64,000 nt of DNA, taken from an uncultured Chloroflexia bacterium. Lineage in GTDB: Bacteria > Chloroflexota > Anaerolineae > Anaerolineales > UBA4823. The notes beneath the pieces are model-generated. The model was not told where the DNA came from. It saw only the letters and a list, made by a program, of their open reading frames with translations, and ran no database searches. The translations under genes were made by a program, and so were the position numbers. Positions 13,702-53,533 of this stretch are shown in pieces (within the stretch, counting starts at the first letter, position 1; the number at the start of each line of letters is the position of its first letter). The stretch spans positions 27,458 through 91,457 of the forward strand of contig CAVPNY010000019.1 of the NCBI GenBank assembly GCA_963706905.1. Direction: 5' to 3'.

Positions 13702-16329
13702 CTAAGGTGGAGGCGGACACTGTTGAAGATGTAAATACTTCTTGCATTCTTCTATTGTCAAAGTACGAGTCAAACGAGAGATGGTCATGTCGACAATTTC
13801 GTTTACCTGCAATGTGTAGATGCGGAAGGTCATATCCGTGCCGGCTGTGATTAGGTGTTTCCCGTCGGGGCTGAAGGAGGCACCGATAACCGCGCCGGTG
13901 TGGCCGGTCAATGTCAATAGCTCCTCGCCTGTCGATACATTCCATATTTTCGCTGTCCCATCATTGCTGGTTGTCGCCAGCCGTGTGCCATCTTGACTAA
14001 AAGATATCATATTAACCGTTGCCATGTGACCTGAGAGGATATTCAGCAGCTTGCCAGAGTCGCTATCCCACACCCTGGTCACTCCATCATAGCTGCCTGT
14101 GATCAGGCGCCTCCCGTCTGGAGCAAAGGAAACTGCTACGTCCCCCATTACATTCTGTAACTCATGACCAGTTAAAGCATCCCACACTTTCGTACTGCCA
14201 TCCTCGCTGGTAGTCGCCAGGCGCTTGCCATCTGGACTGAAAGCTACCTCGTTGACAGGGCCTTTCAGATCCGACAATTCGAGCAGTTCCTGACCTGTAT
14301 TTGCATCCCATACCCTGGCAGTCATGTCAGCACCTCCAGTGGCCAGGCGCTTTCCATCTGGGCTGAACACAAGTGTATAAATCGTATCATGGTGTCCTGA
14401 CATAGTTGCCAGTTTATGTCCGGTCTTTATATCCCAAACCAGCGCCGTTGTTCCCAGGGCAGTCGCCAAGCGGGTATTGTCCGGACTCAAGGCAATCCAA
14501 AGAATCGAGCCGGTAATGGGCAGGGAGGTCGTGAGCAGCTCCTGAGAGGTGGAACTGCTTCGAATTTTAACCACACCATCTTCGCTGATCGTAGCCAGGA
14601 GGGTTCGGTCAGGGCTAAAATTTCCAGCGGTGACCATAGCCGAATGGTCGAAGAAAAATGTCAACACCTCTCGGCTACCGGTTGGAGTAATATCCCAGAA
14701 CGTAACTGTACCATCCCGGTTAGCAGTAGCTACGCGCATTCCGTCCGGGCTGACGGCTAGATGGTTAATCGGTCCATGCCCGGTAAGAGAGAATAGCTCT
14801 TGCCCGGTGGAGGTGTCCCATACTTTAGCAGTTCCATCCTGGCTGCCTGTAATCAGGAAGGCGCCGTCGGGCGTGAAGGCCAGGCCGGGCACTCCCCGCC
14901 GGTGACCAGCCAAAGTCAAGATTGCCTGGGTAGGCGCTTCATCCGATGAAACATCCCACAAGGTGACCAATGCATCGCCCCCAACCGCCAGGTTCTTTCC
15001 ATCCGGGCTAAAAGCCAGGCCCCAGACGGCAAGATCATCGGCGGACCAGGCAAAGAGTTCGTCGCCGGTGGCTGCCTCCCACATTTTAACCGTGCCATCA
15101 TCGCCACCCGTTGCCAGGCGTTTCCCGTCTGCAGTGAAAGCCACCTGCCGGACAGCCGGATGTACCAGAGTAAATACTTCTGCTGCCTGTAGCCTCGCCG
15201 CTGAACGATTGAGATTCCACAGGCTGATTATCCCATCCGCGCTGGTCAGCGCCAGCTGCTTTCCATCAGGTCTGAAAGCCAGGCTGTATATCGCATGAGG
15301 CCGATTGATATTGGCTAGTTCCTTTCCGGTTTGTGCATCCCATAGTCTGGCGGTTGAATCTTCGCTAGCAGTAGCCAGTGTCTTACCATCTGGGCTGAAA
15401 GCGATATCATCTACCCAACCAGAATGACCCTGCAGCGATAACAACTCCTGACCAGTTTGTGCGTCCCACACTTTGGTTGTTTGATCAAAGCCTGCGGTAG
15501 CCAGTCGCTTTCCGTCAGGGCTAAAATCCAAGCTCCACACATCGCCTATATGCCCGGTAAGGTTAAATTGGGCACGTAGAGCCTGCACCGCTTGGTGAAG
15601 GGCGTTTTCTGCTTGCGGGGTATTGGCTTCTGAGACTGCATAAATAGCAAGCCAAGCGCTTAACTCAGGATCCGATTCCAGGTTATTGAGCGCAGCAGTC
15701 GCCCATTCACGCGAGGCGGCAAGGCGGGCTCTTTCTTGGGCTTGTTGACCGAGGGCCAGCGCGACTACCGCCATTAGCCCTGCAAAGATCAAAGCTAACG
15801 CTAGAAATACTGATCGATGGCGCATAAGCCGCACCAGCCTGACCTGCTCCTCAGCCCGCTGCCTTTCAACCTCGGCCAGTTTTTGAGCCGCCACAAGCTC
15901 ACGTTGCTGCTGTGCTTCACGTTCGGCAATTTCCTGCTCAGCATGGGATTTGGAAGCCTCAAGAAACTCTCGCTCTATGACATTCAGGTCGGTTGGGTGG
16001 GTTTTTGCCCATTCCAGCGCCTGAGCAAGCCGCAAACCACCATACAACACCTCGATATTGTGCCCCAGTCGTTCCCATTCCTGTGCGGATTCCGTAATGC
16101 GGCGATGTAGGCGTAAGCTCTGGCGATCTTCATCTAACCATTCGCGCAATGCAGGCCATTCGCGGATTAGCGCTTCGTGCGCAACTTCGACGGTTCCCTC
16201 AGCCGCTATGACCAAGCGCGCGTCGATTAGCATCTTTAGCACAGCCATGATAGCTGAACTCTTGCTCGGGAAAGGAGTACAACTCCGAAATGACAACCCG
16301 TCGGCGGGTATCTTGCGTGCCCTCACCAA
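13702..16329 (-). CDS. C-terminal part of the SARP-NTPase-WD40 protein: conserved helical block, coiled coil, one TM helix, 14 WD40 repeats (continues ORF 16199..18220 after a frameshift)
   Basis: VAHEALIREWPALREWLDEDR block, TM helix SVFLALALIFAGLMAVVALALG, then 14 units of the type (F/S)SPDGK.LAT...D.T.(K/R)(V/L)WD. The first ~27 codons of the ORF are out-of-frame read-through of the upstream fragment. Confidence 0.85.
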   Translation of the reverse strand: MVRARKIPADGLSFRSCTPFPSKSSAIMAVLKMLIDARLVIAAEGTVEVAHEALIREWPALREWLDEDRQSLRLHRRITESAQEWERLGHNIEVLYGGLRLAQALEWAKTHPTDLNVIEREFLEASKSHAEQEIAEREAQQQRELVAAQKLAEVERQRAEEQVRLVRLMRHRSVFLALALIFAGLMAVVALALGQQAQERARLAASREWATAALNNLESDPELSAWLAIYAVSEANTPQAENALHQAVQALRAQFNLTGHIGDVWSLDFSPDGKRLATAGFDQTTKVWDAQTGQELLSLQGHSGWVDDIAFSPDGKTLATASEDSTARLWDAQTGKELANINRPHAIYSLAFRPDGKQLALTSADGIISLWNLNRSAARLQAAEVFTLVHPAVRQVAFTADGKRLATGGDDGTVKMWEAATGDELFAWSADDLAVWGLAFSPDGKNLAVGGDALVTLWDVSSDEAPTQAILTLAGHRRGVPGLAFTPDGAFLITGSQDGTAKVWDTSTGQELFSLTGHGPINHLAVSPDGMRVATANRDGTVTFWDITPTGSREVLTFFFDHSAMVTAGNFSPDRTLLATISEDGVVKIRSSSTSQELLTTSLPITGSILWIALSPDNTRLATALGTTALVWDIKTGHKLATMSGHHDTIYTLVFSPDGKRLATGGADMTARVWDANTGQELLELSDLKGPVNEVAFSPDGKRLATTSEDGSTKVWDALTGHELQNVMGDVAVSFAPDGRRLITGSYDGVTRVWDSDSGKLLNILSGHMATVNMISFSQDGTRLATTSNDGTAKIWNVSTGEELLTLTGHTGAVIGASFSPDGKHLITAGTDMTFRIYTLQVNEIVDMTISRLTRTLTIEECKKYLHLQQCPPPP

Positions 16330-18220
16330 GCTCAGTCAGCCTCAGGAAGATGTTGCGGGCGATCGCCCTCTGCATAGGTGATAGCTTATCAAAAGTTGAC
16401 TCGGCTGTCATGGCAATAGCACCGTGAACTCCGCCAGATTCCGTGTATCCGTTGAGGGAGAGCATGCGACCACGCCGTCGCTTCCAAGTCTCTAGCAAGG
16501 CGTGGGAGAGCAGAGGTAGCCTACCAGGCTCGTCTCCGGCATCGCGAATCATTAATTCCAATAGGCCAGGCTCTATGATCCATCTGTCGCGAATGGCTGG
16601 CCCTTCGATCGCCTGGCGCAATCCAGCCGCATTCATTGGACCGATGAATTCCTGCTGCATGCTCAATGCCTGACGAAGAATTTCGTAAGGGGCGCATTGG
16701 TAATAGAAATCTGCGCGTAAGGCGATCAGAATGATTGTTGGCCCCTCGATGTTTTGGAACTCATCATCAACTCGGCTTTGATTGGCGCTGGCCGCATGCA
16801 ATTCTCTATCCGTTTCCAATTTGAGATGGTTGAGACCTGCAGCAAATAACAAATTGTCTATGAAGGCTTTACGCTCGGCTTCATTACGGCAAAGTGTAAA
16901 TAATTCTTCAAATTGGTCCACCACCAATAAAAGACGTTTTTCCTTTCCTGCTCGTCCCCTGGTCGGCGAGAGAGTGAGTAGTTTTTTTTGCACGTACAGG
17001 TGCAAGCTACGCGGGTCACGCGCCAGGTCATCCATCAGCGTGGATGTGGCAGTGACTGATGCAGAGTCGAGAGTCAAGCTGGTGGCCAGTGCTTCTAGTG
17101 GATGGGCGGTGGGAGTAATGATATGAACCAGCCAGCTAGTACTGCCTTCAGGTGGGAGTGTTCCATCTGCCAGGAGACTACCGCTTTTGAGGGCAGGCAC
17201 CAAGCCAGCCCGCAGGATGGATGATTTGCCGCTCCCCGAAGCGCCGACGATTGCGAGAAAGCGCCCATCCCCACCTGGATAGCCTGTAGGAGATCTAGAT
17301 AATCCATCTCGCAAGCGCTGAACAAGCTTAGCGATTAACGATTCGCGACCGAAGAAGATGCCAGCATCAATTTCATCAAAGTGTTGCAAACCCTTATAGG
17401 GAGGTTTGCCAGGCTCTGGTTGTTTCTCATCCAGGACAATAATTGGAGCAGTCCTGATCAATCTTCCATCACGGATGCTCTGGTAAAGAGTCGTGGTTTC
17501 TTCTGATGGCTCAACGGCCAACTCATCAGCCAGCACACGACGGCAAGCAGCATATTGCGCTAAGGCCGCGCTACGCTGCCCGCACAGCGCCAGCATCCGC
17601 ATGAGTTGTTGATGCGCTTCCTCATTCCAGGGTTCCAATTCAACCTGGCGCCGAGCATAGCTTTGGGCTTGCTCAAATTTACCGCGCTGCTCAAACAATA
17701 TTGCCAGCCGATGCAGTATGTTCAGCATCCGCCTGTGAAGCTGCTCACGGGTGAGCAGCGCCCACTCATCGAAAGGGGCGCTGTCTTTGACCGCGAATCC
17801 ACTCAGGAAGTTGCCCTGATACAAAGCTACAGCTTGCTCAAGCACTTGCACTGAATCTGCTCCCGCAACCACGACAGGTTTTGTAAGTTCCAGGAAGCGA
17901 GTTGAATCTATCCAATGGTCACTGTTAATATTAAATTGGATCGTATCGTGGGTTATCAGTAAGTAAGGTGGGGAGGCCTGGCGGTCGCCAATCGCTTGGC
18001 GCAGATTGGAGAGATTGTAACGTAAATTGTCGAGGGCTGAGCGATCAGGCCAACCTGGCCACAGCAGGTCGGCTAGCGCCTCCCGGCGGTGAGGCCGATC
18101 TGCTTCAATTGCCAGGTAAGCCAGTAAAGCGCGGACTTTGTTAGATTTAAAGTCCGTTGCCAGCTTGCCATCCAAACTCACCTGGAAATTCCCCAGCAGA
18201 GAAAGTGATAGACACGCCAT
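16199..18220 (-). CDS. N-terminal part of the SARP-NTPase-WD40 protein: OmpR-type winged helix + BTAD (SARP) + STAND-like P-loop NTPase
   Basis: SARP head (LSLLGNFQVSLDGK...KVRALLAYLAIE...R..LADLLWP) and a BTAD-like helical region (EEAHQQLMRMLALCGQRSAALAQYAACRRVLADELAVEPSEET). Walker A GASGSGKSSILRAGLVPAL and Walker B LLLVVDQFEELF. The last ~20 codons are out of frame. Confidence 0.85.
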   Translation of the reverse strand: MACLSLSLLGNFQVSLDGKLATDFKSNKVRALLAYLAIEADRPHRREALADLLWPGWPDRSALDNLRYNLSNLRQAIGDRQASPPYLLITHDTIQFNINSDHWIDSTRFLELTKPVVVAGADSVQVLEQAVALYQGNFLSGFAVKDSAPFDEWALLTREQLHRRMLNILHRLAILFEQRGKFEQAQSYARRQVELEPWNEEAHQQLMRMLALCGQRSAALAQYAACRRVLADELAVEPSEETTTLYQSIRDGRLIRTAPIIVLDEKQPEPGKPPYKGLQHFDEIDAGIFFGRESLIAKLVQRLRDGLSRSPTGYPGGDGRFLAIVGASGSGKSSILRAGLVPALKSGSLLADGTLPPEGSTSWLVHIITPTAHPLEALATSLTLDSASVTATSTLMDDLARDPRSLHLYVQKKLLTLSPTRGRAGKEKRLLLVVDQFEELFTLCRNEAERKAFIDNLLFAAGLNHLKLETDRELHAASANQSRVDDEFQNIEGPTIILIALRADFYYQCAPYEILRQALSMQQEFIGPMNAAGLRQAIEGPAIRDRWIIEPGLLELMIRDAGDEPGRLPLLSHALLETWKRRRGRMLSLNGYTESGGVHGAIAMTAESTFDKLSPMQRAIARNIFLRLTELGEGTQDTRRRVVISELYSFPEQEFSYHGCAKDANRRALGHSG

Positions 18221-18417
18221 GGAGCGATATGTAAGAGAAGCTGCAGGTAAATACTATTTTCTTTGTCATTATACAACATCAAACATTGGTTTTCAATCGG
18301 CACGCTTTCGGCACGCTTACTCCCACATTCACGCCACACTTGAATGATAGATTGAATACAAACAGCCAATCCATGATCCATCCATTCTTGAGCGAGTTCT
18401 ATTAAGGAGAAACTAAA

Positions 18418-18810
18418 ATGAAAAGGCAATCGACAAAATTAATCTTGGTCGCGCTTACCATCCTGTTGATCATCGTCGGGTGTAGCCCAAACGTGACTCA
18501 ACCCTCACCTCCCCCGGTTCCGACAGCGACACAGGTGAGCTTTCCAATCGGCGTCTTTACCAAGGCAAATTGGACGATGGAGATTAATGGCGACGGCAGT
18601 TGTCATGTCTATCAGCAATTAGTGGATGATAACTGTACCTACACGGCGACCGGGGATCAGGTTGTCTTCCAGAGCGAGCATTGCAAAGGTGTACCGGGCA
18701 CATACAACTGGTCCTACGATGGTCAGGTATTGAGTTTCACGGTGATCACAGACAAGTGTACCGACATTCGAAATCTGCTTGGTCATAGCGAATGGAAGAA
18801 AACGCCATAG
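18418..18810 (+). CDS. Small lipoprotein, function unknown
   Basis: Signal peptide plus lipobox (LLIIVGCSPN). 130 aa, Cys-rich. GGAGAA lies upstream of the ATG. Confidence 0.6.
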   Translation: MKRQSTKLILVALTILLIIVGCSPNVTQPSPPPVPTATQVSFPIGVFTKANWTMEINGDGSCHVYQQLVDDNCTYTATGDQVVFQSEHCKGVPGTYNWSYDGQVLSFTVITDKCTDIRNLLGHSEWKKTP

Positions 18811-33324: not shown

Positions 33325-36300
33325 ATGACTCAACCTGCCTCACCACCTGATGATCAAGAAGCCATTGATGCCCGCGGTTTGCAGGGCTTTATCGACCAGC
33401 CCTCTGGCCCGGTGGAGCAGGTCTTTGGCGATCGAGTCGCCGGCGACAAGGTCGCGGGCGATAAAATCGCGGGCGATAAGATCGCCGGTGACAAGATCGT
33501 CACCGGCGGCGGTGATTACATCGTCTACAACATCACCACCACCGTGGTCAGCGAGGCGCAGGTCAAGACCATTGAAGACCTGCCGCCCGAGCCTGGCGAG
33601 GCGCCCTTCCAGGGCTTGCAGTACTTCGACGAATCCGACGCCGAGCGCTTCTTTGGGCGCGAGGAGCTGACCGCCCGTATCGTCGGCCGCCTGGGACGGG
33701 CACCTTTCCTGGCGGTGATCGGCGCCTCCGGCAGCGGTAAATCCTCGCTGCTGCGCGCCGGGGTGATCCCTGCCCTGCGTCGCGGAGAGCGCCTGGCAGA
33801 CGGCAGCCTGCCCCCTACCGACAGCCCGAAGTGGGCTATCCAGGTTATTACCCCCACCGCTCACCCGCTGGACGCCCTGGCGGCGGCCTTGTTGCCCGAG
33901 CCCGAGCAACTGGCGGCCATGACCGCCTTGCGCGAGCAGCTTGCCCAGCACCCTGAGATGTTGACCCAGGCGGTCAGCCAGTACCTGGCCCGGCATAAAA
34001 ATCCGCACCTGCTGCTCTTCGTGGACCAGTTCGAGGAGCTCTTTACCCTGTGCCGCAAACCAGACGAGCGCGAAGCCTTTATCGCCAGCCTGCTTTCCGC
34101 GGCTGCGCCGGATGAGACTGGCAATCTGAGCCTGCTGATCGCCCTGCGCGCGGATTACTATGCCCAGGTGGCGCAGATCGAGCGCCTGCGCGAGGCCGTC
34201 TCGCAGTCCCAGGAGCTCATTGGGGCGATGAGTCGCACCGAGCTGGCGCGCGCCATCGACCGTCCATTGGCCCTGGGAAACTGGCAGATCCAGCAGGGGT
34301 TGATTGAGGTCATTCTGGGTGATATTGGATACGAGCCCGGCGCCCTGCCGTTGCTTTCGCATGCCCTGCACGAGACCTGGCTGCGCCGCCGCGGCCGCAC
34401 CCTGACACTATCTGGCTATACCGAGGCAGGTGGGGTGCGCGGCGCGGTCGCTCAGACCGCCGAGGCGGTTTTCCAGCGCCTGCCAGCCCTGCAGCAGGAG
34501 GTAGCGCGCAGCATTTTCCTGCGCATGGCCGAAGTCGGGCAGGATTCGCAGGATACGCGCCGCCGGGCGACTTACGACGAGCTGATCACGCGCTCGACCG
34601 ATGAGCTGGTGATCGACGCTGTGGTGGGCGTCCTGGCGGATGCCCGTCTGGTGACTACCGATACCCTGCAGCCGGGCGGCGAGAAAATTGTCCAGGTGGC
34701 GCATGAAGCCTTGATCCGCGAGTGGCCCACCCTGCGCGGCTGGCTGGATGAGGACCGCGAAGGTCTGATCCTGCACCAGCGCCTGGCGGAAGCCGCCGAT
34801 GATTGGTCCAAGCTGGGGCGCGATCCGGGCGCGCTGTACCGCAGCGCCCGATTGAAAGCTGCCCAGGATTGGGCGACCGCCCATCCTAAGGCGATCAGCG
34901 TGCTGGAGGAGGAATTCCTGAAAACCAGCCAGCAGGTTGCCGATCAGGAAGCCGCGGATATCATCCGTCTCAGACGCGCCCGGCAAATCCAGCGCATTAT
35001 GATCGGGGTGACTATTGCCCTGGTCGCAGCAGTGGCTTACCTGGCCTATACCTTCTTGATCAAGAAGACGCCGGCAGTCATGGATGGTTTCTTCAATGTC
35101 GCTATCGCTTCCGCCCCTGGACCAGCCACAACCACTTCGGACGCCAATCCGGCTTTTACGGAGGCGCTGTACACCAACATGCGCCGTGCGCTGGGCGACA
35201 ATTCCAACATTCTGGTATGGCGCGACAGCCCCGAGCTGCGCGACCTCAATGTAACTATCGGGTCTGTGGAGGGGGAAACCCCCGAGGCGCAGACTCAATC
35301 GGCCGATCAAATGGCAGCACGCTTGCATGCCAATATGGTGATCTATGGCAGCCAACAGAGCGGCCCGGATGGGCGTGAATTTGTCTTGCAGTTCTACCTG
35401 GCGCCTCGCGAAGGAACCGACTATGCCGACATCCAGGGCGGGTTTGACCTGGGCTGCCACGCTTCGCTGGAGGATCAGCCTGGATCCTTTTATATTATCC
35501 CCACCGAGCTGGAATCGTATTTTGGCGGCTGCGCCAGCGCGCTGGCCCAGATCGCCCTGGGCTTGAGCGAAGCTGAACTGGGCCATTCACTCGAAGCGCT
35601 GGAAGCCTTCCAGAAAGCAAGGGATTATTTTTCGACCTCTGAGGTGATCCAATTCCTGATCGGGCGTGAATACCTGTTCCTGGTCGACCGCGAATCGGTG
35701 TTGAATTTCGTCCGGGATGAATTCTACGCCCAGGCTGCACAGGCTTTTACCGTTTCGGCTAATCTCAATCCTGGATATCCCCGCGCCCATATCGGGCTCG
35801 GTTCCGTTTACTTTAAACAGGCGCGTGACCTGGAGGACAAATCGGTTTCTGATTTTGGAGCCGGTGTCAGCTCCCCAGAGCAGTTAGCCCAAGCCTTGCA
35901 GCTCGTCGATCAATCCATCGCCGAATACGGTAAAGCCCTGGAATTAGCCGCCAATGACCTCTCGGGTATCCCGGTTGACAGCGTAGCCCGCCAGGGCCAG
36001 GGCAATGCCCTGAAACTAAAAGGCGAGATCCTGTTAGATCAAGGCCAGACTGAGCAGGCCCGGGGGTATTTCGAGCAGGCGGTGCAGGCTTTGGAACCCA
36101 CGATCGGGTCTTTCGAACAGTCTGGTCAAGCCCGCTACCTGGCGCAGACTTACGAATATCTGGGCCGGGCTTATTTATATCTGGGATCGGCTGATGAGCA
36201 GGTGCAGGCCTATGCTGATGGGTTGGTTGCTTACCAATCAGCCCTCAACTATTTCGACCTGTGCATCGCGCAGGCGGAGTCGACCCAGGACTTTATTATT

Positions 36301-36384
36301 AAAACGAATATAGTGGCAGAAGCCTGCCAACTCAACCGCGAGTTTGTGCAGGAGCGCATTGCACTATTAGGAGGTACGCAATGA
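33325..36384 (+). CDS. STAND-like P-loop NTPase with N-terminal 5-residue repeats, one TM helix and C-terminal TPR-like domain
   Basis: GDRVAGDKVAGDKIAGDKIAGDKIV repeats, Walker A GASGSGKSSLLRAGVIPAL and Walker B LLLFVDQFEELF. Conserved blocks are shared with 16199..18220/13702..16329 (PLLSHAL.ETW.RRRGR.L.L.GY; QDTRRR; VAHEALIREWP.LR.WLDEDR). TM helix IMIGVTIALVAAVAYLAYTFLI. The C-terminal ~250 aa consist of TPR-like helices. Confidence 0.85.
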   Translation: MTQPASPPDDQEAIDARGLQGFIDQPSGPVEQVFGDRVAGDKVAGDKIAGDKIAGDKIVTGGGDYIVYNITTTVVSEAQVKTIEDLPPEPGEAPFQGLQYFDESDAERFFGREELTARIVGRLGRAPFLAVIGASGSGKSSLLRAGVIPALRRGERLADGSLPPTDSPKWAIQVITPTAHPLDALAAALLPEPEQLAAMTALREQLAQHPEMLTQAVSQYLARHKNPHLLLFVDQFEELFTLCRKPDEREAFIASLLSAAAPDETGNLSLLIALRADYYAQVAQIERLREAVSQSQELIGAMSRTELARAIDRPLALGNWQIQQGLIEVILGDIGYEPGALPLLSHALHETWLRRRGRTLTLSGYTEAGGVRGAVAQTAEAVFQRLPALQQEVARSIFLRMAEVGQDSQDTRRRATYDELITRSTDELVIDAVVGVLADARLVTTDTLQPGGEKIVQVAHEALIREWPTLRGWLDEDREGLILHQRLAEAADDWSKLGRDPGALYRSARLKAAQDWATAHPKAISVLEEEFLKTSQQVADQEAADIIRLRRARQIQRIMIGVTIALVAAVAYLAYTFLIKKTPAVMDGFFNVAIASAPGPATTTSDANPAFTEALYTNMRRALGDNSNILVWRDSPELRDLNVTIGSVEGETPEAQTQSADQMAARLHANMVIYGSQQSGPDGREFVLQFYLAPREGTDYADIQGGFDLGCHASLEDQPGSFYIIPTELESYFGGCASALAQIALGLSEAELGHSLEALEAFQKARDYFSTSEVIQFLIGREYLFLVDRESVLNFVRDEFYAQAAQAFTVSANLNPGYPRAHIGLGSVYFKQARDLEDKSVSDFGAGVSSPEQLAQALQLVDQSIAEYGKALELAANDLSGIPVDSVARQGQGNALKLKGEILLDQGQTEQARGYFEQAVQALEPTIGSFEQSGQARYLAQTYEYLGRAYLYLGSADEQVQAYADGLVAYQSALNYFDLCIAQAESTQDFIIKTNIVAEACQLNREFVQERIALLGGTQ

Positions 36385-51636: not shown

Positions 51637-52227
51637 ATGGATAAAATGGCTCCAACCCGCATGAAAACTAGCCCGCCAGCAACCTACCTTGCCGTGGATG
51701 ACGAAGCCCGATTGGCGGATCGCATCTCCCAGGACCCGGCTGCCTTCGCCGAGCTATACCGGCGCTACGTGGATCGTGTCTACCGCTACCTGTACAGCCA
51801 CGTTGGAGATGCCGACGAAGCTGAGGACTTGACCGCTCAGGTATTCACCGCTGCCTGGGAAAGCCGCCAGCGCTACCACGAGCAGGGCGCCTTTGCTGCC
51901 TGGTTGTTCAGTATTGCCCGCCGCAAGATCGCCGATCATTTCCGTCACCGCCGCCTGCAGGTCTCACTGGAAGGCGAAGACCCGCCTCTAAGGGTGGATT
52001 GGGACCCCCTCAGCCAGCTTGTCCATACCGAATCCATGCAGCGGTTAACGCGCCTGGTGCACTGCCTGCAGCCCAGGGAGGTCGAGCTGCTGCGGTTGCG
52101 CTTTGCGGCTGATTTGAGCTATGCCGAGATCGGCGCTGCGCTGGGAAAGAGCGAGGCCGCGGTCAAGATGGCGATGCACCGGTTATTGGAGGAGTTGCAG
52201 GGAGAATGGGAGCGCAGTGATGAGTGA
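51637..52227 (+). CDS. ECF-type RNA polymerase sigma factor (sigma-70 family)
   Basis: Region 2 (FAELYRRYVDRVYRYLYSHVGDADEAEDLTAQVFTAAWE) and region 4 HTH (LSYAEIGAALGKSEAAVKMAMHRLLEEL). Confidence 0.9.
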   Translation: MDKMAPTRMKTSPPATYLAVDDEARLADRISQDPAAFAELYRRYVDRVYRYLYSHVGDADEAEDLTAQVFTAAWESRQRYHEQGAFAAWLFSIARRKIADHFRHRRLQVSLEGEDPPLRVDWDPLSQLVHTESMQRLTRLVHCLQPREVELLRLRFAADLSYAEIGAALGKSEAAVKMAMHRLLEELQGEWERSDE

Positions 52228-53533
52228 TCTGAAACCCTTAAATCAAGGTTCCCCACCAGATATCGAAGCCTCCCTGACGGAATTATTCCATGCCCCCGCC
52301 CCCGATGCTGTTTTTGTGGCGCGCTTTGAACAGAACTTATTAACCCGCGCTCGCCAGGAGAAGCAGACACCCTCCCTGCGGCAGCGTTTATCGGCGCTGT
52401 TCCCCTCGGCTGCCCGAGGATTGGCCTGGGGATTAGGCGCGCTGCTGCTTATCGCCGCGCTGGCCTGGGGCATCCGCAACCTGATCCCGGGAGTTCTACC
52501 CGCCGGGCAAGCCTCACTTACACCGGCTGATCTTGCCGTCCCGCCGGAAGAGCCCCCTGCGCCTTCCGGGCTGCTCATCGCAGGCAGCTTCTCTGGCCTC
52601 GCCAGCCCGGACGATCTGGTGACCTTCCACGTGACCACCTCAGAAGGCAGGGAGCCCGTCTCCGCATCCCAGCGCGGCAATGGCGCCTGGGAGGCAGAGC
52701 TGTCCAGTGCCCAGGATAGCGATAATTTCACAGTCACTGCCGAGGCGGTGGGCTATATCGTCAGCCCGGCCAGCTACGCGCTCACGATCCGGGGTGGGCA
52801 GGTCTATCTGCTGGACGGTGACCAGCCTGGCGCGCCAGCCACCAACCTCCATTTTGCATTCTTTTATCCGGCGGCGGAATTCCAGACGTATACCCACCCG
52901 GAAATTGGTTTCACATTCGAATATCCTGGGGATTGGACGCTGGAAGAAGCGCCGCATTACGTGTTTCTGCGCAAAGGGCCGTTCCGGCTCATGATCGCCT
53001 TCCGCCGTCCGGAGGAATCGCACCAGATCCAGCCCACCGGCCTGCCTTCCGGGGAGCTCCTCGAAGCTGGCTCGCTCCAATTCCTGGATCAGGAGATCAG
53101 CCGTACAAAGCTGGTCAGCGAGGAGCGGGTCAAAGAGGTGTTGTACAACGGTGCTCGGGAGATCCAGTTCAAGGATATTGCTTTCGTGCTGATGCTGGAT
53201 GCGGGACAGAACGATTACGCCGCCATCGACATTCCCCAGGAGGTTCAGGCCATCGCTGACCAGGTCCTGGCTTCCTTCTCCATGCCGGGTTTAGAGCCGC
53301 TGCCTGACATCCTCTCTGCCGAGGGGCTGGGCCGGGTGGCAACCATGCAAGATGGCGACATCTGGGTCAAATCCCTGCCGGACGGCGAATCAATCCGCCT
53401 GACATCGGACGGGGCAAACTATCATTCCGCTCTGGTCGCCTTCCGGTACGTGGCTGGCTTACCTCCACGGGGAAGGACAGGTGGTAAACCTGGTGCGCGC
53501 CGATGGGACCGGCGCCCACACTTTAGAACTTGA
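52220..53533 (+). CDS. Putative anti-sigma factor, fragment 1 (cytoplasmic N-terminus, one TM helix, extracytoplasmic domains)
   Basis: ATG 52220 overlaps the sigma-factor stop by 8 nt. TM helix GLAWGLGALLLIAALAWGI. The frame is lost near 53425 (…RLTSDGANYH / PLWSPSGTWLAYLHGEGQVVNLVRADGTG continues in the next fragment). The ORF-track start is 52121. Confidence 0.65.
   Translation: MSDLKPLNQGSPPDIEASLTELFHAPAPDAVFVARFEQNLLTRARQEKQTPSLRQRLSALFPSAARGLAWGLGALLLIAALAWGIRNLIPGVLPAGQASLTPADLAVPPEEPPAPSGLLIAGSFSGLASPDDLVTFHVTTSEGREPVSASQRGNGAWEAELSSAQDSDNFTVTAEAVGYIVSPASYALTIRGGQVYLLDGDQPGAPATNLHFAFFYPAAEFQTYTHPEIGFTFEYPGDWTLEEAPHYVFLRKGPFRLMIAFRRPEESHQIQPTGLPSGELLEAGSLQFLDQEISRTKLVSEERVKEVLYNGAREIQFKDIAFVLMLDAGQNDYAAIDIPQEVQAIADQVLASFSMPGLEPLPDILSAEGLGRVATMQDGDIWVKSLPDGESIRLTSDGANYHSALVAFRYVAGLPPRGRTGGKPGARRWDRRPHFRT

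What the first reader, a model, noticed from the sequence alone, without database searches (positions are those of the whole stretch)
13702..18220. About 1500-aa SARP-NTPase-TM-14xWD40 protein, split by a single-base frameshift and paralogous to the NTPase at 33325
The two overlapping minus-strand ORFs are one gene.
- ORF 16199..18220 ends ...QDTRRRVVISELYSFPEQEF.
- ORF 13702..16329 continues in the neighbouring frame with ...SSAIMAVLKMLIDARLVIAAEGTVEVAHEALIREWPALREWLDEDR.
- The same order is seen uninterrupted in the paralogue (QDTRRRATYDELI...VVGVLADARLV...VAHEALIREWPTLRGWLDEDR).
- Removing one base at ~16257-16258 (TT on the coding strand) restores the frame.

The restored architecture is: OmpR-type winged helix + BTAD (SARP), a P-loop NTPase (GASGSGKSSILRAGLVPAL; LLLVVDQFEELF), a coiled coil, one hydrophobic helix (SVFLALALIFAGLMAVVALALG), and 14 WD40 blades.

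A DNA-binding head and a double-propeller sensor separated by a membrane helix is topologically odd. Either the propellers are extracytoplasmic or the helix is not membrane-inserted.

Two paralogous NTPase cores sit 15 kb apart with different heads (SARP versus 5-residue repeats) and different tails (WD40 versus TPR). This suggests modular diversification of one switch family.
Basis: partly seen in the sequence, partly recalled or inferred. Interest (0 to 1): 0.65.

Follow-up and report, generated by a model that had tools for sequence, protein, structure and literature searches.

The report
Frameshifted membrane-spanning SARP–STAND–WD40 regulator gene
The two overlapping ORFs are one 1505-residue gene broken by a single extra T, and it belongs to a very large but untested family of regulators that probably sense something outside the cell with a WD40 double propeller and switch on genes directly from the membrane.

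Summary
ORFs 16199..18220 and 13702..16329 (minus strand) are two halves of one gene.

- **Frameshift.** Four near-identical public contigs (99.6-99.9% DNA identity) carry one T where the window has TT at 16257-16258. They encode an intact 1505-aa protein. Orthologues at 81-70% identity are also intact.
- **Error or mutation.** Whether the extra T is an assembly error or a recent strain mutation cannot be decided without reads.
- **Architecture.** SARP head (winged helix + BTAD), nSTAND1 NTPase (PF20703), one long helix holding a strongly hydrophobic segment, then 14 WD40 blades.
- **Membrane helix.** It is conserved in 104/108 family members and 105/113 diverse nSTAND1 representatives. Its flanking charges point the same way every time (N-terminus inside), so the propellers are most likely outside the cytoplasm.
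- **New here.** A perfect 2 x 11-nt direct repeat abuts the gene's own promoter. Related 11-nt-spaced repeats sit upstream of 12/17 homologues, which suggests autoregulation through the SARP head.
- **Paralogue.** The gene at 33325 shares the NTPase core (47% identity) and the membrane helix, but has a different head and tail.

This is an ordinary member of a large, machine-annotated family. The family's transmembrane STAND design is under-described.

The parts
13702..18220 (-). Whole gene (two ORFs plus the stop codon): a 1505-aa SARP-nSTAND1-TM-WD40 protein once one T is removed
16257..16258 (-). Frameshift site: TT in the window, single T in four near-identical contigs (one extra base)
   Evidence: the only gap inside the gene in alignments of 5.3-6.6 kb
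17960..18142 (-). OmpR-type winged-helix DNA-binding domain (aa 27-87)
   Evidence: Pfam Trans_reg_C scores 26.2 bits, exactly at the cut-off. Residues 4-247 align to EmbR 2FEZ (E 8e-11) and residues 4-249 to AfsR 8HVR (E 1.6e-07).
17471..17860 (-). BTAD domain (aa 121-250), completing the SARP head
   Evidence: Pfam BTAD, E 1.5e-26
16060..17401 (-). nSTAND1 NTPase (aa 274-720), interrupted by the frameshift. Walker A GASGSGKS at 17222..17245; Walker B LLLVVDQFEE at 16904..16933.
   Evidence: Pfam PF20703, 406.6 bits, profile 1-376 of 379 after repair; coordinates
15685..15981 (-). Single long helix (aa 747-845): a charged stretch, the hydrophobic segment, and an extension beyond it
   Evidence: AlphaFold2 helix 92-190 of the 850-aa model. 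pLDDT is 61-72 in the charged part and 83-95 in and after the hydrophobic part.
15748..15813 (-). Predicted transmembrane helix SVFLALALIFAGLMAVVALALG (aa 803-824), preceded by RLVRLMRHR
   Evidence: Kyte-Doolittle 2.84 over 19 residues. Conserved in 104/108 family members and 105/113 nSTAND1 representatives. K+R higher on the N-terminal side in 103/107.
13813..15573 (-). Fourteen WD40 blades (aa 883-1469), read as two seven-bladed propellers
   Evidence: Fourteen FSPDG-type repeats; 56 strands, pLDDT mostly above 90; Foldseek top hits 2YMU and Apaf-1
13705..13812 (-). C-terminal helical tail with the conserved motif EEC-x2-YLH-x3-CP (13714..13752)
   Evidence: The motif is present in 86/108 full-length homologues. 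Its two Cys are the only ones after the membrane helix.
18268..18296 (-). Near-consensus sigma-70-type promoter of the gene (TTGAAA, 17-nt spacer, TATAAT)
   Evidence: 11 of 12 matches. The TATAAT and a TTG-type -35 are kept in L004, L005, L006, L007, L080, L081, L082 and L083.
18297..18318 (-). Candidate SARP box: perfect tandem repeat of 2 x 11 nt (AAGCGTGCCGA on the gene strand), abutting the -35
   Evidence: Related 11-nt-spaced repeats occur upstream of 12/17 homologues, against 0.026 expected per 300 nt.
18418..18810 (+). Divergently transcribed 130-aa lipoprotein-like ORF; a possible second target of the shared intergenic region
   Evidence: Conserved next to the gene only in the closest relatives (L001-L004, L079)
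33325..36384 (+). Paralogue (1019 aa): 5-residue repeats (33436..33498), nSTAND1 (33604..34827), TM helix (34996..35061), TPR-like tail

Best explanation
**Shown**
- 13702..18220(-) is one gene for a 1505-aa protein.
- In this assembly it carries one extra T (TT at 16257-16258) inside the nSTAND1 domain. That cuts it into a 673-aa SARP-NTPase fragment and an out-of-frame remainder.
- The intact allele exists in four near-identical contigs and in all orthologues.
- The protein has an N-terminal SARP head (winged helix + BTAD), an nSTAND1 STAND-type NTPase with intact Walker A and B motifs, a long helix with a conserved hydrophobic segment, and 14 WD40 blades.

**Inferred**
- The hydrophobic segment is a single membrane span with the N-terminus inside. 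The DNA-binding head and the NTPase are then cytoplasmic, and the double propeller is outside the cytoplasm as the ligand sensor.
- Ligand binding outside would change the oligomeric state across the single helix.
- The nSTAND1 module would lock that state by nucleotide-dependent oligomerisation.
- The side-by-side SARP heads would then bind 11-nt-spaced direct repeats at promoters. One such site is the 22-bp box just upstream of the gene's own -35 (positive autoregulation).
- In effect this is a ToxR/CadC-like membrane-tethered activator with a STAND switch built in.

**Unknown**
- The ligand and the wider regulon.
- Whether the extra T is an assembly error or a very recent inactivating mutation. 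If it is real, this copy cannot couple sensor to output.
For: **One gene, one extra base**
- Repair by one base gives 1505 aa.
- The nSTAND1 profile match grows from 1-307 to 1-376 of 379.
- P0001 matches across the junction.
- L001-L003 and L079 show a single gap at 16258 within the gene.
- Orthologues P0002-P0005 and locus L004 are intact at about 1505 aa.

**Domains**
- BTAD E 1.5e-26, nSTAND1 406.6 bits.
- The head aligns to EmbR and AfsR.
- Fourteen blades.

**Membrane span and orientation**
- Kyte-Doolittle at least 2.0 at a fixed offset (median 124 aa after the AHEAL motif) in 104/108 and 105/113 proteins.
- Mean K+R 4.7 upstream against 1.8 downstream; upstream higher in 103/107 and never lower.
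- The helix sequence itself varies freely while hydrophobicity is kept.
- Non-WD40 tails in the clade include a Sortilin/BNR-type propeller.
- Precedent for periplasmic WD40/TPR arrays behind a single span: PMC11032199.

**DNA target**
- Perfect 2 x 11-nt repeat abutting the -35.
- The strict pattern occurs once in 64 kb (0.12 expected). Among the 79 loci fetched by then it matched in 9, always on the gene strand. The 5 that are not window-strain contigs all carry a SARP-headed homologue, and the sites checked lie upstream of it.
- The relaxed pattern occurs in 12/17 upstream regions, clustered at -97 to -117, against 0.026 per 300 nt background.
- SARPs are known to bind direct repeats spaced 11 or 22 bp apart (PMC10936776).
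Against: - **No reads.** Error versus mutation is undecided. The TT allele was found in no other public contig.
- **Topology rests on hydropathy and charge bias only.** No dedicated predictor or experiment was available.
- **Conflict with the canonical STAND mechanism.** STAND proteins are normally held off by direct contact between the sensor repeats and the NTPase. That is impossible across a membrane, so the signalling step is conjecture.
- **Export.** Moving a 680-aa double propeller without a signal peptide, after 800 cytoplasmic residues, is demanding.
- **Box position.** The candidate box lies upstream of a near-consensus -35/-10 pair. This is not the classical SARP position (3' repeat 8 bp from the -10). 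A promoter that good may not need an activator, so the box could mediate something other than activation.
- **No further sites.** No other convincing box sites exist in the window.
- **Exceptions.** Five of 17 homologue upstream regions lack the pattern.
Confidence: 0.8

Rival explanations
1. The extra T is a sequencing, polishing or assembly error. The organism's real gene is intact and functional.
For: - Four of four near-identical contigs from other assemblies have a single T.
- ORF2 is otherwise completely open and identical to L003 over 2.6 kb.
- There is no sign of decay: five SNPs in the gene, three synonymous and two conservative (E>D, I>V).
- Neither ORF product is on record anywhere else.
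Against: - TT is not a long homopolymer, the usual site of indel errors.
- No other split gene was detected among the suspicious overlapping ORF pairs of the window, so the assembly does not look error-prone.
- The window is a distinct strain, sharing five SNPs against all four other contigs, so a private mutation is possible.
Confidence: 0.5
2. The extra T is a genuine, very recent mutation. In this strain the gene is a fresh pseudogene, or yields a truncated soluble SARP-NTPase fragment uncoupled from its sensor.
For: - The window differs from the intact contigs at five shared SNPs, so it is another strain.
- The rest of the window shows no evident indel damage.
- Large multi-copy STAND genes are plausible targets of loss. 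A paralogue sits 15 kb away.
Against: - No second disabling change and no excess of non-synonymous differences.
- The allele is unseen in public collections.
Confidence: 0.45
3. The split is a functional arrangement: programmed +1 ribosomal frameshifting, or two genuine genes.
For: The two ORFs overlap by 131 nt, and an in-frame ATG (16246..16248) follows the site.
Against: - The break lies inside the nSTAND1 domain.
- Strains 99.6-99.9% identical encode the protein in one frame.
- All orthologues listed at 70-81% identity, and locus L004, are single ORFs.
- No recognisable shift signal is conserved, because the site simply does not exist in relatives.
Confidence: 0.03
4. The hydrophobic helix is not membrane-inserted. 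The whole protein is cytoplasmic and works like Apaf-1 or AfsR, with the WD40 propellers sensing an intracellular ligand and contacting the NTPase.
For: - This is the canonical STAND mechanism.
- The closest structural matches of the tail include cytosolic Apaf-1.
- Four of 108 family members lack the helix.
- The C-terminal Cys-containing motif is not proof of an oxidising compartment.
Against: - A 22-residue segment with Kyte-Doolittle 2.84 and no charged residue.
- Conserved in hydrophobicity but not in sequence in over 90% of two independent samples, at a fixed position.
- Uniform positive-inside bias in 103 of 107.
- AlphaFold2 shows it as part of an isolated 99-residue helix rather than a separate globular element (secondary structure only; coordinates were not inspected).
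Confidence: 0.12
5. The protein is part of an anti-invader (conflict or defence) system, as proposed for nSTAND1 proteins generally, rather than an environmental signal transducer.
For: - nSTAND1 was defined in predicted counter-invader systems (PMC8195603).
- Relatives in the same clade carry CHAT protease heads.
- Tandem arrays of paralogues occur (L086).
Against: - The head is a transcription activator, not a toxic effector.
- PADLOC gives no meaningful hit.
- The neighbours scanned (19.7-22.7 kb) are metabolic or uncharacterised families, with no defence domains; the ORF immediately downstream looks like an oxidoreductase by sequence only.
- An external sensor cannot see cytoplasmic phage proteins.
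Confidence: 0.2

Closest known systems
AfsR and other 'large' SARPs (Streptomyces); EmbR
   Same: - N-terminal OmpR-type winged helix plus BTAD. The head aligns to EmbR 2FEZ and AfsR 8HVR.
- Followed by a STAND NTPase and a repeat domain.
- SARPs bind direct repeats spaced 11 or 22 bp apart (PMC10936776), matching the 2 x 11-nt box found here.
   Different: - The NTPase here is nSTAND1, which has no solved relative detectable by sequence.
- The tail is WD40 rather than TPR.
- A membrane helix separates the NTPase from the repeats.
- The box sits upstream of the -35 instead of overlapping it.
- The NCBIfam AfsR equivalog scores 54 bits against a cut-off of 1430.
nSTAND1 NTPases of predicted counter-invader systems (Kaur, Iyer, Burroughs, Aravind 2021, PMC8195603)
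   Same: The same Pfam family PF20703 over its full length, with variable N-terminal heads and C-terminal repeat tails.
   Different: - The head is a transcription factor rather than a death or effector domain.
- There is no defence context.
- The membrane helix between NTPase and repeats, near-universal in this clade, is not mentioned in the passages I could search.
ToxR / CadC-type membrane-bound one-component activators (my own knowledge)
   Same: A cytoplasmic N-terminal OmpR-type winged helix, a single membrane span, and an extracytoplasmic C-terminal sensor. The DNA is bound by a membrane-tethered protein.
   Different: Those proteins have no BTAD and no NTPase, are about five times smaller, and have unrelated sensors. 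The resemblance is architectural, not an orthology claim.
Single-pass Ser/Thr kinases with periplasmic WD40/TPR arrays (Planctomycetota, PMC11032199); M. tuberculosis PknD (my own knowledge)
   Same: A cytoplasmic ATP-using head, one membrane helix, and long external beta-propeller or TPR arrays.
   Different: The output there is a kinase, not a STAND NTPase with a DNA-binding head. Relatives with SARP + kinase + nSTAND1 do exist (P0174).
Apaf-1, and the Nostoc punctiforme 14-blade WD40 protein 2YMU
   Same: Tandem seven-bladed WD40 propellers. Foldseek gives E 1.9e-51 for 2YMU and 2e-37 for Apaf-1 3SFZ. In Apaf-1 the arrangement is also STAND plus double propeller.
   Different: Apaf-1 is cytosolic, and its propellers contact the NTPase. 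Here a membrane span intervenes.
MalT / GutR (STAND transcription activators)
   Same: A nucleotide-dependent oligomerisation switch fused to a DNA-binding domain. They are cited as non-immune STANDs in PMC13581612.
   Different: The DNA-binding domain is C-terminal and LuxR-type in MalT. Those proteins are soluble, with cytoplasmic ligand sensing.

Membership tests
SARP (Streptomyces antibiotic regulatory protein) family | N-terminal OmpR-type winged-helix DNA-binding domain | tested here: met
   Pfam Trans_reg_C, aa 27-87, scores 26.2 bits, exactly at the cut-off of 26.2. Residues 4-247 align to EmbR 2FEZ (E 8e-11) and residues 4-249 to AfsR 8HVR (E 1.6e-07).
SARP (Streptomyces antibiotic regulatory protein) family | Bacterial transcriptional activator domain (BTAD) directly after the winged helix | tested here: met
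   Pfam BTAD, aa 121-250, E 1.5e-26, 94 bits against a cut-off of 22.1
SARP (Streptomyces antibiotic regulatory protein) family | Binds direct repeats spaced 11 or 22 bp apart at target promoters, with the 3' repeat 8 bp from the -10 | tested here: inconclusive
   A candidate 2 x 11-nt perfect repeat lies at 18297..18318. Related repeats occur upstream of 12/17 homologues. However, the box lies upstream of the -35 and 23 bp from the -10, and no binding was measured.
nSTAND1 (PF20703) STAND NTPases | Full-length match to the family profile above the curated threshold | tested here: met
   406.6 bits against a cut-off of 27.1, profile positions 1-376 of 379 after frame repair
nSTAND1 (PF20703) STAND NTPases | Intact Walker A and Walker B motifs | tested here: met
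   GASGSGKS (aa 326-333) and LLLVVDQFEE (aa 430-439), read directly and invariant in alignments
nSTAND1 (PF20703) STAND NTPases | Nucleotide-dependent oligomerisation | not testable with these tools
   Needs biochemistry. No solved structure of the family was found by sequence.
AfsR orthologues (NCBIfam NF053617 equivalog) | Score above the equivalog cut-off | tested here: not met
   54.1 bits against a cut-off of 1430, and only the SARP head matches. The protein works like a large SARP but is not an AfsR orthologue.
Single-pass membrane receptors (N-in / C-out) | One hydrophobic segment long enough to span the bilayer, conserved in relatives | tested here: met
   22 uncharged residues, Kyte-Doolittle 2.84. 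Present in 104/108 and 105/113 relatives at a fixed offset.
Single-pass membrane receptors (N-in / C-out) | Positive-inside charge bias that defines the orientation | tested here: met
   Mean K+R 4.7 on the N-terminal side against 1.8 on the C-terminal side. Higher on the N-terminal side in 103/107, never lower.
Single-pass membrane receptors (N-in / C-out) | Experimental membrane insertion and an external C-terminal domain | not testable with these tools
   No TMHMM/DeepTMHMM was available, and there is no experiment.
WD40 double beta-propeller | Fourteen four-stranded blades | tested here: met
   Fourteen repeats by motif; 56 strands with pLDDT mostly above 90; Pfam WD40 gives 12 significant stretches; Foldseek hits tandem seven-bladed propellers
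Known anti-phage defence systems (PADLOC-DB; Avs-type STANDs) | Match to a defence-system protein model over the NTPase or effector | tested here: not met
   Only a WD40-region hit and P-loop-only hits of about 20 residues

The most novel reading that the evidence does not exclude
The gene exemplifies a very large, experimentally untouched clade of nSTAND1 NTPases that are single-pass transmembrane receptors. The output head and the NTPase are inside the cell and the repeat sensor (WD40, TPR or BNR-type propeller) is outside.

This would be a STAND/NLR-like switch whose sensor and nucleotide-binding module lie on opposite sides of a membrane. It could not use the canonical autoinhibition by sensor-NTPase contact.

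In the SARP-headed subfamily the whole pathway would sit in one polypeptide: external ligand, then NTP-dependent oligomerisation, then direct promoter activation. It would feed back on its own promoter through conserved 11-nt direct repeats.
Probability: 0.45. Interest if true: 0.65.

Novelty: new member of a known kind. Interest (0 to 1): 0.4.

Why it matters
**For annotation.** The two ORFs should be merged and flagged as a frameshifted copy of a 1505-aa gene.

**For biology.**
- The gene itself is one of thousands of machine-annotated 'WD40 repeat / SARP family' proteins of Chloroflexota.
- The family-level pattern is of wider interest. The membrane helix is nearly universal, always oriented the same way, and sits between an NLR-like NTPase and its repeat sensor.
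- If the topology is right, these are one-protein transmembrane signalling pathways built on a STAND switch.
- The conserved 11-nt repeats give a concrete, testable DNA target for the SARP head outside Actinobacteria.

Tried and rejected
- **Programmed frameshift or two-gene arrangement.** Rejected: near-identical strains and all orthologues listed at 70-81% identity are in one frame.
- **Search for the TT allele elsewhere.**
  - A scan of JGI metagenome contigs for the junction with T or TT found one further contig, with a single T.
  - Exact look-ups of the ORF1 product, an ORF2 product and the neighbouring 356-aa protein found nothing.
  - The source strain is therefore not in that collection, and error versus mutation stays open.
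- **Other split genes in the window** (as a gauge of assembly quality). Five overlapping same-strand ORF pairs were scanned. Every domain that was detected is complete, and five of the ten ORFs gave no Pfam hit and stay uninformative.
- **Defence-system membership.** PADLOC gave nothing meaningful.
- **Solved structure of nSTAND1 by sequence.** None found.
- **Species-representative genomes.** The best match is a 79% orthologue in a Chloroflexia MAG, so the window's own genome is not a representative.
- **The small divergent lipoprotein as a conserved partner.** It is conserved only in the closest relatives.
- **More SARP-box sites in the window.** The relaxed pattern gives 16 hits against 9.8 expected. 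All hits except the promoter site lie outside intergenic promoter regions or look fortuitous.
- **Whole-protein Pfam census of the clade.** It was swamped by overlapping WD40 families, so heads and tails were scanned separately on small samples.
- **A SARP-dependent -10 placed 8 bp after the box (CAATGT).** Considered, but not conserved in L004-L006.
- **Literature.** No description of a membrane helix after nSTAND1 was found in the passages searched.


Full report
**1. The observation**

The two minus-strand ORFs are present as described: 16199..18220 (673 aa) and 13702..16329 (875 aa). They overlap by 131 nt in neighbouring frames.

- ORF1 carries Trans_reg_C (weak), BTAD and nSTAND1 (PF20703). 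The nSTAND1 match stops at profile position 307 of 379.
- ORF2 starts with sequence that aligns to the continuation of the paralogue's NTPase region (47% over 131 aa, E 2e-29). WD40 repeats follow.
- Removing one T at 16257/16258 gives a single 1505-aa ORF. The nSTAND1 match then covers positions 1-376 of 379 at 406.6 bits. The break therefore lies inside one domain.

**2. Independent proof of the indel**

- P0001 is encoded on three contigs from ENA, JGI and Logan assemblies (L001-L003). A fourth JGI contig (L079) came from a pattern scan that accepted either T or TT.
- All four align to the window over 5.3-6.6 kb at 99.6-99.9% identity. Inside the gene the only gap is TT (window) versus T at 16257-16258.
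- Orthologues at 81, 80, 77 and 70% identity are single ORFs of 1505-1526 aa. So is the 79% orthologue in a 291-kb contig of a Chloroflexia MAG (L004).
- The window shares five SNPs against all four contigs: three synonymous, plus E492D and I497V. It is therefore another strain.
- No further damage is seen. ORF2 is identical to L003 over its whole length.

I could not find the TT allele anywhere else. Exact look-ups of the window's ORF products and of a neighbouring protein found nothing. Five other overlapping same-strand ORF pairs gave no evidence of a split: every domain detected is complete, though half the ORFs had no Pfam hit. Whether the extra T is an assembly error or a fresh mutation stays open, at roughly even odds. 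A programmed frameshift or a two-gene arrangement is effectively excluded.

**3. Anatomy of the intact protein** (coordinates)

| Part | Residues | Evidence |
|---|---|---|
| Winged helix | 27-87 | Trans_reg_C at threshold |
| BTAD | 121-250 | E 1.5e-26 |
| nSTAND1 | 274-720 | 406.6 bits |
| Walker A GASGSGKS | 326-333 | read directly |
| Walker B LLLVVDQFEE | 430-439 | read directly |
| Long helix | 747-845 | AlphaFold2 |
| Hydrophobic segment | 803-824 | Kyte-Doolittle 2.84 |
| WD40 blades | 883-1469 | |
| C-terminal helical tail | 1470-1505 | |

- The whole SARP head aligns to EmbR (2FEZ, E 8e-11) and AfsR (8HVR).
- AlphaFold2 was run on the 850 residues after the break, with 47 aligned sequences (mean pLDDT 88.2). 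It gives one continuous 99-residue helix, two short helices, and then 56 strands, which is 14 four-stranded blades.
- Fourteen FSPDG-type repeats are counted directly.
- Foldseek's best matches are tandem seven-bladed propellers: 2YMU at E 1.9e-51 and Apaf-1 at 2e-37.
- The C-terminal tail carries the motif EEC-x2-YLH-x3-CP, conserved in 86/108 homologues. Its two Cys are the only ones after the hydrophobic segment.
- The 'coiled coil' was not tested as such.

**4. Is the hydrophobic helix a membrane span?**

Yes, as far as sequence can tell.

- In 108 full-length homologues of the SARP-headed family, 104 have a 19-residue window with Kyte-Doolittle at least 2.0. Its median position is 124 residues after the AHEAL motif.
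- The segment's sequence varies freely, but the RRLRRR-like cluster in front of it is kept.
- A profile of the two window NTPase cores was searched against 1.84 billion cluster representatives. It found 42,233 hits at E up to 1e-3 and 12,947 at E up to 1e-30.
- Among the 138 new top representatives, 105 of 113 with enough downstream sequence have the same single hydrophobic segment at the same offset. These representatives have many different heads and tails.
- In 107 of them, K+R in the 15 residues before the segment averages 4.7, against 1.8 after it. The count is higher before in 103 and never lower.

The clade therefore has a uniform N-in/C-out signature. This is also the only orientation compatible with a DNA-binding, ATP-using N-terminal half. 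The paralogue at 33325 has the same helix (aa 558-579).

This layout has precedent. Most Planctomycetota Ser/Thr kinases are single-pass proteins whose WD40/TPR arrays are predicted to be periplasmic (PMC11032199). ToxR/CadC-type winged-helix activators work while membrane-anchored (my own knowledge).

The unusual point is that a STAND NTPase is separated from its repeat sensor by a membrane. That rules out the usual sensor-NTPase autoinhibitory contact. I found no description of this in the searchable text of the papers that defined nSTAND1.

**5. A candidate DNA target**

The 197-bp region between the gene and a divergent 130-aa lipoprotein-like ORF (18418..18810) is about 84% identical to that of the 79% orthologue. 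It contains two features:

- a near-consensus promoter for the gene, TTGAAA-17-TATAAT, at 18296..18268;
- a perfect tandem repeat of 11 nt abutting the -35, AAGCGTGCCGA AAGCGTGCCGA on the gene strand, at 18297..18318.

How specific is this box?

- The strict pattern RRNCGTG-N4-RRNCGTG occurs once in the window, against 0.12 expected.
- Among the 79 loci fetched by then, it matched 11 times in 9 loci, always on the gene strand. Four of the 9 are window-strain contigs. The other five (L004, L006, L007, L014, L017) carry SARP-headed homologues at 39-79% identity, and every site checked lies upstream of the homologue. None was found in about 65 loci that matched only the WD40 part.
- With seven further homologue loci fetched later, a relaxed pattern is present in 12 of 17 upstream regions. 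It mostly lies at -97 to -117 from the start codon. The background is 0.026 per 300 nt.
- Several loci have three units, for example CAACGTGTAGA AAACGTGAGGG GAACGTGATGG in L014.

SARPs bind direct repeats spaced by 11 or 22 bp (PMC10936776). The simplest reading is that the head is a working DNA-binding module that autoregulates its own gene.

Caveats:

- The box lies upstream of a good -35 rather than 8 bp from the -10.
- No binding was measured.
- No further sites were found in the window.

**6. The paralogue and modularity**

The gene at 33325..36384 shares the NTPase core: 47% over 396 aa (E 2e-101), 55% in a trimmed alignment. It also shares the membrane helix.

- Its head is a run of 5-residue repeats with no Pfam match.
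- Its tail has only sub-threshold TPR hits. Homologues of the tail carry TPR families.
- In the wider clade, the heads sampled include SARP, SARP + protein kinase, SARP + nucleotide cyclase, CHAT protease and unknown domains.
- Tails are WD40 in 19/35 sampled, or 66/107 by motif. Others are TPR or a Sortilin/BNR-type propeller.

It agrees with the published description of nSTAND1 (PMC8195603).

**7. What it is not**

- It is not an AfsR orthologue: 54 bits against a cut-off of 1430.
- It does not match any PADLOC defence model beyond WD40 or P-loop fragments.
- The neighbours scanned (19.7-22.7 kb) are metabolic or uncharacterised families.

**8. Verdict**

The gene is a frameshifted copy of an ordinary member of a very large family that databases label 'WD40 repeat protein / DNA-binding SARP family transcriptional activator'.

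Two family-level points raise the interest above routine:

- a near-universal, uniformly oriented membrane helix between the STAND NTPase and its sensor repeats;
- conserved 11-nt direct repeats in front of the SARP-headed genes.

Both are computational inferences that simple experiments could test.

Noticed in passing
window 18268..18318 (- strand): A near-consensus promoter (TTGAAA-17-TATAAT) with a perfect 2 x 11-nt direct repeat (AAGCGTGCCGA) abutting its -35. Related 11-nt-spaced RRNCG[TC] repeats lie upstream of 12/17 SARP-nSTAND1-WD40 homologues. This is a candidate autoregulatory SARP box.
   Followed up: yes
window 18418..18810 (+): A divergent 130-aa ORF with a lipoprotein-like signal (…LLIIVGCSP…) and four more Cys. 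It has no Pfam context. It is conserved beside the gene only in the closest relatives (L001-L004, L079) and shares the conserved intergenic region.
   Followed up: partly
P0121-P0258 (nSTAND1 cluster representatives); window 15748..15813 and 34996..35061: A single hydrophobic helix about 124 residues after the AHEAL motif is present in 105/113 diverse nSTAND1 proteins, whatever the head or tail. K+R is higher on the N-terminal side in 103 of 107. This is a family-wide transmembrane design that I did not find described in the searched papers.
   Followed up: partly
window 13714..13752 (- strand): The conserved C-terminal motif EEC-x2-YLH-x3-CP, found in 86/108 homologues. Its two Cys are the only ones in the 680 residues after the membrane helix. 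It may be a disulfide or metal site; the meaning is unknown.
   Followed up: no
window 33436..33498 (+): The paralogue's N-terminus holds about four 5-residue repeats (VAGDK/IAGDK). There is no Pfam match and the function is unknown.
   Followed up: partly
L086 1..7020: Three nSTAND1 genes in tandem on one strand, two of them with BTAD heads. This looks like local paralogue expansion in an ENA metagenome contig.
   Followed up: no
L081 71..808, L084 270..1082, L085 1..802: In three more distant homologue loci the divergent upstream neighbour carries a SnoaL_2 domain. The window has the small lipoprotein ORF in that position instead.
   Followed up: no
P0174 and P0147 (relatives): Heads that combine SARP with a Ser/Thr protein kinase, or with a class III nucleotide cyclase, in front of nSTAND1.
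   Followed up: partly
window 19353: A second 1-nt difference between the window and contig L079, where a C on the + strand is missing in L079. It lies between ORFs and not in a homopolymer. L001-L003 do not cover it.
   Followed up: no
window 51637..53533 (+): An ECF-type sigma factor (Sigma70_r2 + r4). It is overlapped by a 470-aa ORF with no Pfam match, which may be its anti-sigma partner.
   Followed up: no
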